From: a virus
Taxonomy: Duplodnaviria; Heunggongvirae; Uroviricota; Caudoviricetes
Reading direction: 5' to 3' (one strand)
Length of the DNA stretch: 11,341 nt
IMG/VR virus record: IMGVR_UViG_2537561932_000025
Span: 1 to 11,341 of that record
Positions within the stretch are counted from its first letter, which is position 1. Each line of letters opens with the position of its first letter. The translations under genes were made by a program, and so were the position numbers. The notes below the pieces were generated by a model. The model was given only the letters and a program-made list of their open reading frames with translations. It made no database searches and was not told the DNA's origin. Positions 2,663 to 2,812 of this stretch are shown here, in pieces.

Positions 2663-2812
2663 CCTAACGCCCCCCCCAAAAAACGCATAACCAATTGTAT
2701 TTATTTCAAAATTAATAGATACAACTCACTAAACATCGCAATTCAGATCTCTCGATCACCTTCCCAATCCACACAACCCTGCAAAAAATAAATCTATATA
2801 AAAAACATACAG

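What the first reader, a model, noticed from the sequence alone, without database searches (positions are those of the whole stretch)
2664..2685. Homopolymeric C8 then A6 tract between the cassette terminator and oL
The sequence cgccccccccaaaaaacgc contains an 8-C run followed directly by a 6-A run in the short spacer upstream of oL3. Tracts of this length are prone to slipped-strand mispairing. Length changes here would alter spacing between the terminator and the operators or promoter, or could be a sequencing-error hotspot.
Basis: seen in the sequence. Interest (0 to 1): 0.2.

Follow-up and report, generated by a model that had tools for sequence, protein, structure and literature searches.

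The report
Variable C-A run beside prophage terminator
A run of eight Cs and six As just after the terminator of a lambda-type prophage's immunity operon is a real slippage-prone spot whose length differs between otherwise identical prophages. It lies in spacer DNA that tolerates length change, and nothing found here suggests it controls anything.

Summary
The tract is real: C8 at 2670-2677 and A6 at 2678-2683. It is the only G/C run of 6 or more in the window and is far beyond chance. The window is a lambda-immunity prophage. CI is about 99% identical to lambda CI, and oL1-3, pL, nutL and N are lambda-like. The tract starts 8 nt after the T-run of the TIMM terminator and lies 201-214 bp upstream of the pL start. 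It is homologous to lambda 35776-35794 (C5A4).

About 180 related prophage, phage and metagenome copies show that this 16-27 nt segment varies in length. On exactly identical 145-bp flanks the tract reads C6/C7/C8, C7A8/C8A9/C14A10, or C3A7/C3A8/C4A8. On one downstream sequence behind a different upstream cassette it reads C7/C8/C9. Short or interrupted alleles, including lambda's, never change length. This is the pattern expected from replication slippage.

The exact C8A6 allele recurs in three complete genomes, a fourth with another cassette, and one metagenome contig. It is therefore unlikely to be a one-off sequencing error.

The functional idea is not supported. The tract is not in an ORF, a core promoter or an operator. 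The terminator-to-oL3 distance varies continuously from 142 to 157 bp. Verdict: an ordinary, probably neutral, hypermutable homopolymer.

The parts
1293..2006 (+). cI repressor gene (237 aa), lambda immunity type. It is the start of the immunity operon that ends at TIMM.
   Evidence: HTH_3 and Peptidase_S24 domains. Annotated as a LexA family protein in the near-identical prophage of strain 503440.
2073..2453 (+). 126-aa ORF of unknown function, occupying the position of lambda rexA/rexB (the 'cassette').
   Evidence: phrog_16322, unknown function, E 8e-89. No Pfam or PADLOC hit. Annotated as hypothetical protein WP_021539111.1.
2523..2624 (+). Unannotated 33-aa ORF (MKTMSTLHKDAMTLRSLINEILARSSAHTKKAA) with a GAGGAA Shine-Dalgarno sequence. 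It is the last reading frame before the terminator.
   Evidence: Read from the sequence. Invariant apart from one synonymous change in 10 prophages. A promoter-like site lies at 2450-2477. No family hit.
2634..2661 (+). TIMM-type intrinsic terminator of the immunity operon: hairpin AACCCGGCCTCAGCGCCGGGTT followed by TTTTCTTT.
   Evidence: Terminator scan. Stable hairpin in the RNA fold. Aligns to the lambda sequence immediately downstream of rexB and to the feature annotated 'Timm' in phage CL707. Lambda TIMM is given as 35799-35824 in PMC3349717.
2670..2677 (+). C8 homopolymer, the length-variable core of the finding.
   Evidence: The homologous run is C3 to C9 and C14 in relatives, and differs on identical flanks.
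2678..2683 (+). A6 homopolymer directly abutting the C run. It is also length-variable.
   Evidence: The run is A4 to A10 in relatives.
2686..2753 (+). Conserved block CATAACCAATTG...CAGATCTCTC, shared with lambda and many lambdoid phages. It contains an AT-rich imperfect palindrome, TTGTATTTATT-N8-AATAGATACAA, at 2695-2724. Function unknown.
   Evidence: Alignments A1 and A2. Low per-column entropy. 11-bp hairpin in the fold. Some E. coli prophages share window 2450-2753 and then diverge (H45-H59).
2783..2788 (+). Second, smaller length-variable A run (A6 here, A6-A8 in relatives), 27 nt upstream of oL3.
2815..2875 (+). oL3 (2815-2831), oL2 (2835-2851) and oL1 (2859-2875), overlapping pL (-35 at 2849-2854, -10 at 2872-2877, start about 2884).
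   Evidence: Mapped from the lambda feature table through alignment. Promoter scan found TTGACA-17-GATACT.

Best explanation
The C8A6 tract is a hypermutable mononucleotide repeat. It sits in the first few bases of the non-coding spacer after TIMM, the intrinsic terminator that ends the cI immunity operon of a lambda-immunity prophage. The site descends from lambda 35776-35794 (CACGATCG-C5-A4-CA). In one lineage the interrupting bases were lost, leaving an uninterrupted CnAm run. That run now gains and loses units by replication slippage much faster than the flanks accumulate substitutions. The spacer tolerates these changes because nothing position-dependent lies to the tract's left, only a terminator. 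The known pL control elements (operators, and the IHF/UP region within about 120 bp of pL) lie 80 bp or more to its right. The length variation is therefore most likely neutral. Shown here: the tract, its homology, its length polymorphism on identical backgrounds, the dependence on run length, and the lack of a spacing constraint. Inferred: slippage as the mechanism, and neutrality.
For: 1. Homology: lambda, CL707 and the window align from the TIMM hairpin through oL, with the tract in the same column (BLAST).
2. Variation: the IMG/VR loci from the two scans, pooled with the loci fetched up to then and the window, give 146 matches and 40 distinct versions of the 16-27 nt segment between GGGTTTTCTTT(G/T)CCT and CATAACCAATTG. 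Pure CnAm alleles range over C3-C8 plus one C14 (C9 appears later) and A5-A10.
3. Polymorphism on exact 45+100 bp flank haplotypes: {C8A6 x2, C7A6, C6A6}; {C7A8 x2, C8A9, C14A10}; {C3A7 x11, C3A8, C4A8}; {C6A6 x2, C5A6}; {C5A5, C5A6}.
4. C7, C8 and C9 occur on the same ~90 nt of downstream sequence behind a different upstream cassette.
5. Among the 14 complete E. coli genomes with the same cassette there are 7 tract alleles (three inferred from match lengths).
6. Short or interrupted alleles show no length change in this sample: lambda-type C5A4 (9 copies plus 16 lambda copies in unrelated assemblies), C4A4 (11), CGTTCGCCCACCTAAAAAA (15).
7. In E. coli the indel rate depends on homopolymer run length (PMC8510543).
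8. No constraint on spacing: the distance from just after TIMM to oL3 takes almost every value from 142 to 157 bp.
9. No function at the tract: no promoter-like site, no Rfam match that passes threshold (one sub-threshold chance-level hit overlaps 2539-2668), no IHF consensus in 2664-2815, and no conserved ORF (the only frame across it starts at TTG without an SD and is broken by the 1-2 nt length changes).
10. The Hayes laboratory uses lambda 35799-35824 alone as TIMM in its expression plasmids. The homologous segment lies just outside that fragment.
Against: Neutrality is inferred, not measured. Every allele keeps a C-rich stretch followed by an A-rich stretch at this spot. The whole spacer is strongly G-poor on this strand in all alleles (8% G against 27% C, background 23% each). 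This could mean selection on composition rather than simple decay. The tract lies 8-22 nt past the likely release site of TIMM, where downstream duplex sequence is reported to modulate intrinsic termination (from general knowledge, not tested). Some of the length differences between assemblies could be homopolymer sequencing errors.
Confidence: 0.75

Rival explanations
1. The tract is the poly-C head of a Rho-dependent backup terminator. Transcripts that read through TIMM carry a C-rich, G-poor, mostly unstructured RNA from the tract to oL3. Rho loads on this RNA and stops transcription before it enters pL-N. Tract length would tune Rho loading.
For: The 150 nt after TIMM are the most G-poor stretch of the whole window (5% G, 28% C). 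The G-poverty holds in all alleles, including parts that are no longer homologous (8-10% G against 23% background). The fold shows only one AT hairpin in this stretch. Poly(C) is the classic best Rho activator (general knowledge).
Against: This is a composition argument only. The strand bias could equally reflect the A-rich upstream activating region of pL. Lambda and many relatives have only C3-C5 here. No published evidence for Rho action downstream of TIMM was found.
Confidence: 0.1
2. The tract is a contingency (phase-variation) switch. Slippage changes expression of pL/N, or of the immunity operon, by altering the termination efficiency of TIMM or the geometry of upstream DNA relative to pL or the oL-oR loop.
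For: The tract is truly hypermutable. A precedent exists for a repeat acting by spacing of distal promoter elements, NadA in meningococcus (PMC2791445, listed). The tract lies in the downstream duplex that RNA polymerase holds at the TIMM release site (inference).
Against: It is not in an ORF, not between -35 and -10, and not between two regulator sites. It is at -214 to -201 from pL. Total spacer length varies freely. Alleles form a graded series rather than two or three favoured states. At 1.6 kb the oL-oR loop should be insensitive to a few bp (general knowledge).
Confidence: 0.07
3. The run length in the window is a sequencing or assembly artefact, and the inter-strain differences reflect homopolymer miscalling.
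For: Homopolymers of 8 or more are error hotspots for several platforms. The extreme allele C14A10 is seen in a single assembly. No reads could be inspected.
Against: C8A6 with 100% identical surroundings is present in three complete genomes (H31-H33), in metagenome contig L149, and in strain IR53017 with another cassette. Length variants also occur in short runs (A7/A8, C3/C4) that are not error-prone. Sixteen independent assemblies containing lambda DNA all give the same C5A4.
Confidence: 0.07

Closest known systems
Phage lambda TIMM-oL intergenic region (lambda 35,651-35,825), specifically 35,776-35,794
   Same: Homologous by alignment. It has the same terminator hairpin, the same conserved block after the tract, and the same oL3-oL1/pL. 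Lambda has a C-run followed by an A-run in the same column.
   Different: Lambda reads CACGATCG-C5-A4-CA, which is shorter and preceded by extra bases, and it shows no length variation in 25 copies. The window's lineage has an uninterrupted C8A6 that varies. The cassette upstream of TIMM is a 126-aa ORF plus a 33-aa ORF instead of rexA/rexB.
Homopolymer indel hotspots in E. coli (run-length-dependent slippage, as seen in mutation-accumulation experiments)
   Same: A mononucleotide run, with 1-nt steps between neighbouring alleles and instability confined to long uninterrupted runs (PMC8510543).
   Different: The evidence here is comparative, between strains and assemblies. It is not a measured mutation rate.
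Phase-variable poly-C/poly-G promoter tracts (for example Bordetella fim, Neisseria porA/opc) and the distal-repeat mechanism of NadA (PMC2791445)
   Same: A hypermutable simple repeat in intergenic DNA upstream of a promoter.
   Different: Those tracts lie between the -35 and -10 hexamers or between regulator-binding sites, and they switch expression. This one lies next to a terminator, about 200 bp upstream of pL, with no element on its far side whose spacing could matter.
Rho utilisation (rut) regions
   Same: C-rich, G-poor RNA of about 150 nt with little predicted structure.
   Different: No functional evidence. The resemblance is compositional only.

Membership tests
Lambda-immunity (imm-lambda) lambdoid prophage, TIMM-oL spacer | DNA homology to the lambda region from TIMM through oL/pL | tested here: met
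   90% identity to lambda 35567-35828 over window 2632-2899. Alignment A1.
Lambda-immunity (imm-lambda) lambdoid prophage, TIMM-oL spacer | Lambda-type operators oL1-3 with pL hexamers, and a lambda-type CI | tested here: met
   Operator sequences match the lambda features. TTGACA-17-GATACT.
Hypermutable mononucleotide simple-sequence repeat | Uninterrupted homopolymer long enough for slippage (about 7 or more) | tested here: met
   C8 directly followed by A6.
Hypermutable mononucleotide simple-sequence repeat | Length polymorphism between otherwise identical sequences, dependent on run length | tested here: met
   Several length alleles on exact 145-bp flank haplotypes. None in short or interrupted alleles.
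Hypermutable mononucleotide simple-sequence repeat | Length heterogeneity within a clonal population (read level), or a measured elevated indel rate | not testable with these tools
   No reads or cultures available.
Phase-variable contingency locus | Repeat placed inside an ORF, between -35 and -10, or between regulator sites, so that length changes switch expression | tested here: not met
   No conserved ORF across the tract. The nearest promoter-like sites are at 2450-2477 and 2849-2877. No IHF consensus in the spacer. Spacer length is unconstrained.
Phase-variable contingency locus | Demonstrated expression switching with tract length | not testable with these tools
   Needs reporter assays.
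Intrinsic terminator TIMM (is the tract part of it?) | Lies within the GC hairpin plus U-run that constitutes the terminator | tested here: not met
   Hairpin 2634-2655 and T-run to 2661. The tract starts at 2670. The lambda fragment used as TIMM, 35799-35824, excludes the homologous segment 35776-35794.
Rho-dependent terminator (rut region) | C-rich, G-poor RNA stretch of about 70 nt or more | tested here: met
   5% G and 28% C over 150 nt, the extreme of the window. Conserved across alleles.
Rho-dependent terminator (rut region) | Termination that depends on Rho | not testable with these tools
   Needs bicyclomycin or rho-mutant assays.

The most novel reading that the evidence does not exclude
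The variable poly-C/poly-A tract and the strongly G-poor spacer behind it form a tunable insulator. It would be a Rho-dependent backup to TIMM, or a modulator of TIMM efficiency. It would set how much lysogenic PRM transcription leaks into pL-N. Slippage would then give prophage populations heritable, reversible variation in leakiness or spontaneous induction.
Probability: 0.05. Interest if true: 0.45.

Novelty: new member of a known kind. Interest (0 to 1): 0.15.

Why it matters
It matters little biologically as it stands. It is a clear natural example of run-length-dependent homopolymer instability in a very well studied regulatory region. Losing the interrupting bases of the lambda-type sequence appears to have released a stable C5A4 into an unstable CnAm run. 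Practically, it flags a site where assemblies of lambda-immunity prophages will disagree. It could also serve as a fast-evolving marker to separate near-identical prophages. It would gain interest only if tract length were shown to change read-through from the immunity operon into pL-N.

Tried and rejected
- Rfam search of 2000-3400 with permissive thresholds gave only a chance-level hit, far below gathering score.
- The promoter and terminator scan found nothing at the tract on either strand. The minus-strand 'terminator' at 2947-2933 is nutL boxB.
- A search for the IHF consensus with up to 1 mismatch found no site in 2664-2815, and the window total was at chance level.
- Coding potential: the only frame across the tract is a 43-codon TTG ORF without an SD, and it is destroyed by the observed 1-2 nt length changes.
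- Helical phasing or fixed spacing to oL3 is rejected, because distances of 142-157 bp are all populated.
- The tract is not a module junction. Homology with lambda begins at the TIMM hairpin, upstream of the tract.
- Literature: Degnan et al. 2007 (wild imm-lambda phages), Cui et al. 2013 and Anderson & Yang 2008 (the UP element near oL) are not held. The statement that the IHF/UP elements lie within about 120 bp of pL therefore rests on my recollection of the Giladi et al. papers.
- The genome-contig scan returned almost only lambda DNA present in assemblies of unrelated species, which was useless for diversity but useful as a stability control.
- The cassette proteins gave no functional hit.

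Full report
**What is in the window**

Reading 2300-3100 shows the left operator and promoter of phage lambda almost base for base. oL3 is at 2815-2831, oL2 at 2835-2851 and oL1 at 2859-2875. The pL -35 hexamer TTGACA is at 2849-2854 and the -10 hexamer GATACT at 2872-2877. The transcript start is at about 2884. nutL boxB follows at 2933-2947, then an N gene at 3253-3579 with the N36 domain.

Upstream on the same strand lies a 237-aa CI repressor with HTH_3 and Peptidase_S24 domains. After it come a 126-aa ORF of unknown function (phrog_16322) and an unannotated 33-aa ORF. These two occupy the place of lambda rexA/rexB. The operon ends at an intrinsic terminator, with its hairpin at 2634-2655 and the run TTTTCTTT ending at 2661.

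The window is nearly identical to a prophage in E. coli strain 503440, with 3 differences in 8900 bases.

**The observation**

The tract starts 8 nt after the terminator's T-run, and it lies 131 nt from oL3. This places it at -214 to -201 relative to the pL start, so it is at the terminator end of a spacer of about 153 nt rather than close to the operators.

It is the only G/C run of 6 or more in the 11.3 kb. A first-order Markov model expects 0.07 C or G runs of 8 or more, and about 1e-4 C8-plus-A6 composites.

**Homology**

BLAST against phage records shows that homology with lambda, HK97, HK542, mEp234, CL707, SfI and many Stx phages begins at the terminator hairpin (window 2632) and runs through oL/pL.

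In the three-way alignment, the terminator matches the lambda sequence immediately downstream of rexB. It also matches the feature annotated 'Timm' in phage CL707. The tract aligns to lambda CACGATCG-C5-A4-CA, which I map to lambda 35776-35794. That position is 5 nt beyond the 35799-35824 fragment the Hayes laboratory uses as TIMM (PMC3349717). CL707 has C6A6 at the same place.

The tract is therefore an expanded version of a short C-run/A-run that already exists in lambda.

I anchored on the invariant sequences either side, GGGTTTTCTTT(G/T)CCT and CATAACCAATTGTATTTAT, and scanned several collections:

- IMG/VR gave 134 loci.
- Metagenomes gave 5 loci.
- GTDB genomes gave 17 loci.
- I also fetched 18 E. 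coli chromosomal copies found by BLAST.

The enclosed segment is 16-27 nt long and has more than 40 versions. Per-column entropy shows it as a variable gap between two conserved islands. The anchors themselves are invariant by construction.

The decisive analysis grouped copies by exact identity of 45 nt upstream plus 100 nt downstream. Within single flank haplotypes the tract reads:

| Flank haplotype | Tract alleles seen |
|---|---|
| 1 | C8A6 (x2), C7A6, C6A6 |
| 2 | C7A8 (x2), C8A9, C14A10 |
| 3 | C3A7 (x11), C3A8, C4A8 |
| 4 | C6A6 (x2), C5A6 |
| 5 | C5A5, C5A6 |

Three genomes carry a different upstream cassette, an SDH-family serine protease gene. They share the same ~90 nt of downstream sequence and read C7, C8 and C9.

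Among the 14 complete E. coli genomes with the window's own cassette there are seven tract alleles. Three of those assignments are inferred from match lengths.

By contrast, haplotypes with short or interrupted runs show no length change:

- Lambda C5A4: 9 copies, plus 16 copies of lambda DNA found in assemblies of unrelated species.
- C4A4: 11 copies.
- CGTTCGCCCACCTAAAAAA: 15 copies.

Instability confined to long uninterrupted runs, with single-unit steps, is the signature of replication slippage. In E. coli the indel rate is known to depend on homopolymer run length (PMC8510543).

**Is the window's C8 an error?**

I could not inspect reads. However, the identical C8A6 with 100% identical surroundings is present in three complete genomes (H31-H33). 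It also occurs in an independent metagenome contig (L149) and in strain IR53017 on another cassette background. A one-off miscall is therefore unlikely. Single odd alleles such as C14A10 remain unverified.

**Does length matter?**

Nothing points that way.

- No promoter-like site, Rfam family or IHF consensus coincides with the tract.
- The only reading frame across it is a 43-codon TTG frame without a ribosome-binding site. The observed 1- and 2-nt changes break it.
- In copies that have lambda-type oL3, the distance from just after TIMM to oL3 takes almost every value from 142 to 157 bp, with no 10-11 bp periodicity.
- To the left of the tract there is only a terminator, which has no positional relationship to pL.
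- The IHF site and UP elements that stimulate pL, and through the oL-oR loop PRM, are described as proximal to oL (PMC3708714; PMC8053113). As I recall the Giladi papers, they lie within about 120 bp of pL. The primary papers were not available.

The most economical reading is a neutral mutational hotspot in tolerant spacer DNA.

**What keeps a small door open**

Every allele retains a C-rich stretch followed by an A-rich stretch at this spot. The 150 nt following TIMM are the most G-poor stretch of the window on this strand (5% G, 28% C). This bias holds across all alleles, including parts that are no longer homologous (8-10% G against a 23% background).

That composition is typical of Rho-loading regions. 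The spacer might therefore act as a Rho-dependent backup that stops TIMM read-through before it enters pL-N. The tract also lies within the downstream duplex held by RNA polymerase at the TIMM release site.

Both ideas are inferences from composition and position only. I give them about 10% and 7%.

**Comparison with known systems**

As a sequence, this is a member of the lambda TIMM-oL spacer family, by homology tested here. As a phenomenon, it is a hypermutable mononucleotide repeat: run length and polymorphism on identical backgrounds were tested and met, and read-level heterogeneity was not testable.

It should not be filed as a phase-variation or contingency locus. The defining placement, inside an ORF, inside a core promoter or between regulator sites, was tested and not met.

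**Verdict**

The regulatory consequence is unsupported. The feature is ordinary and of low interest, and is mainly useful as an assembly caveat and a fast strain marker.

Noticed in passing
window 2523-2624 (+), with 2450-2477: An unannotated 33-aa ORF (MKTMSTLHKDAMTLRSLINEILARSSAHTKKAA) with a good GAGGAA Shine-Dalgarno sequence. It lies between the 126-aa ORF and TIMM and is preceded by a promoter-like site (TTAATA-16-TATAGT). It is conserved with one synonymous change in 10 prophages and is shared by prophages whose operators differ. PGAP does not call it. It has no Pfam, PHROG or PADLOC hit.
   Followed up: partly
window 2073-2453 (+): A 126-aa ORF (WP_021539111.1, phrog_16322, unknown function) occupies the slot where lambda carries the rexA/rexB exclusion genes. 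Other relatives carry an SDH-family Clp-fold serine protease there. This is the known hotspot for prophage accessory or defence genes, so the ORF is a candidate exclusion gene.
   Followed up: partly
window 2695-2724: An AT-rich imperfect palindrome, TTGTATTTATT-N8-AATAGATACAA (10 of 11 symmetric). It is conserved from lambda through all relatives and lies 12 nt after the tract, at about -190 to -160 from pL. I know of no assigned function. The arms are invariant, so covariation could not be assessed.
   Followed up: partly
window 2664-2815: The spacer between TIMM and oL3 is the most G-poor 150 nt of the window on the + strand (5% G, 28% C). The bias is kept in about 50 distinct alleles, including non-homologous parts. 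The composition is rut-like and the function is untested.
   Followed up: partly
window 2783-2788: A second A run (ctgcAAAAAAtaaat), 27 nt upstream of oL3, also varies in length (A6 to A8) among the ten closely related prophages aligned.
   Followed up: partly
loci L151-L166 (GTDB genome contigs): Sixteen representative genomes of unrelated species, including Paenibacillus, Shewanella, Pseudomonas, Desulfovibrio, Kitasatospora and Capnocytophaga, contain the exact lambda allele with the lambda rexB end. Several are on contigs of about 48.4-48.5 kb at low coverage. This looks like lambda DNA contamination of the assemblies.
   Followed up: partly
locus L003 2728-3956 and window 1-405: In the near-identical prophage of strain 503440, an IS2 element interrupts the replication gene next to cII, and an IS100 lies beyond ninB. 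If coordinates correspond, the window starts inside that IS2. The prophage is therefore probably replication-defective (cryptic).
   Followed up: no
window 2884-3252: The pL leader is lambda-like through nutL and up to ...ggctttggggtgtg (about 2978), then diverges from lambda. The N protein keeps the lambda-type N-terminal arginine-rich N36 peptide. This is another mosaic joint.
   Followed up: no
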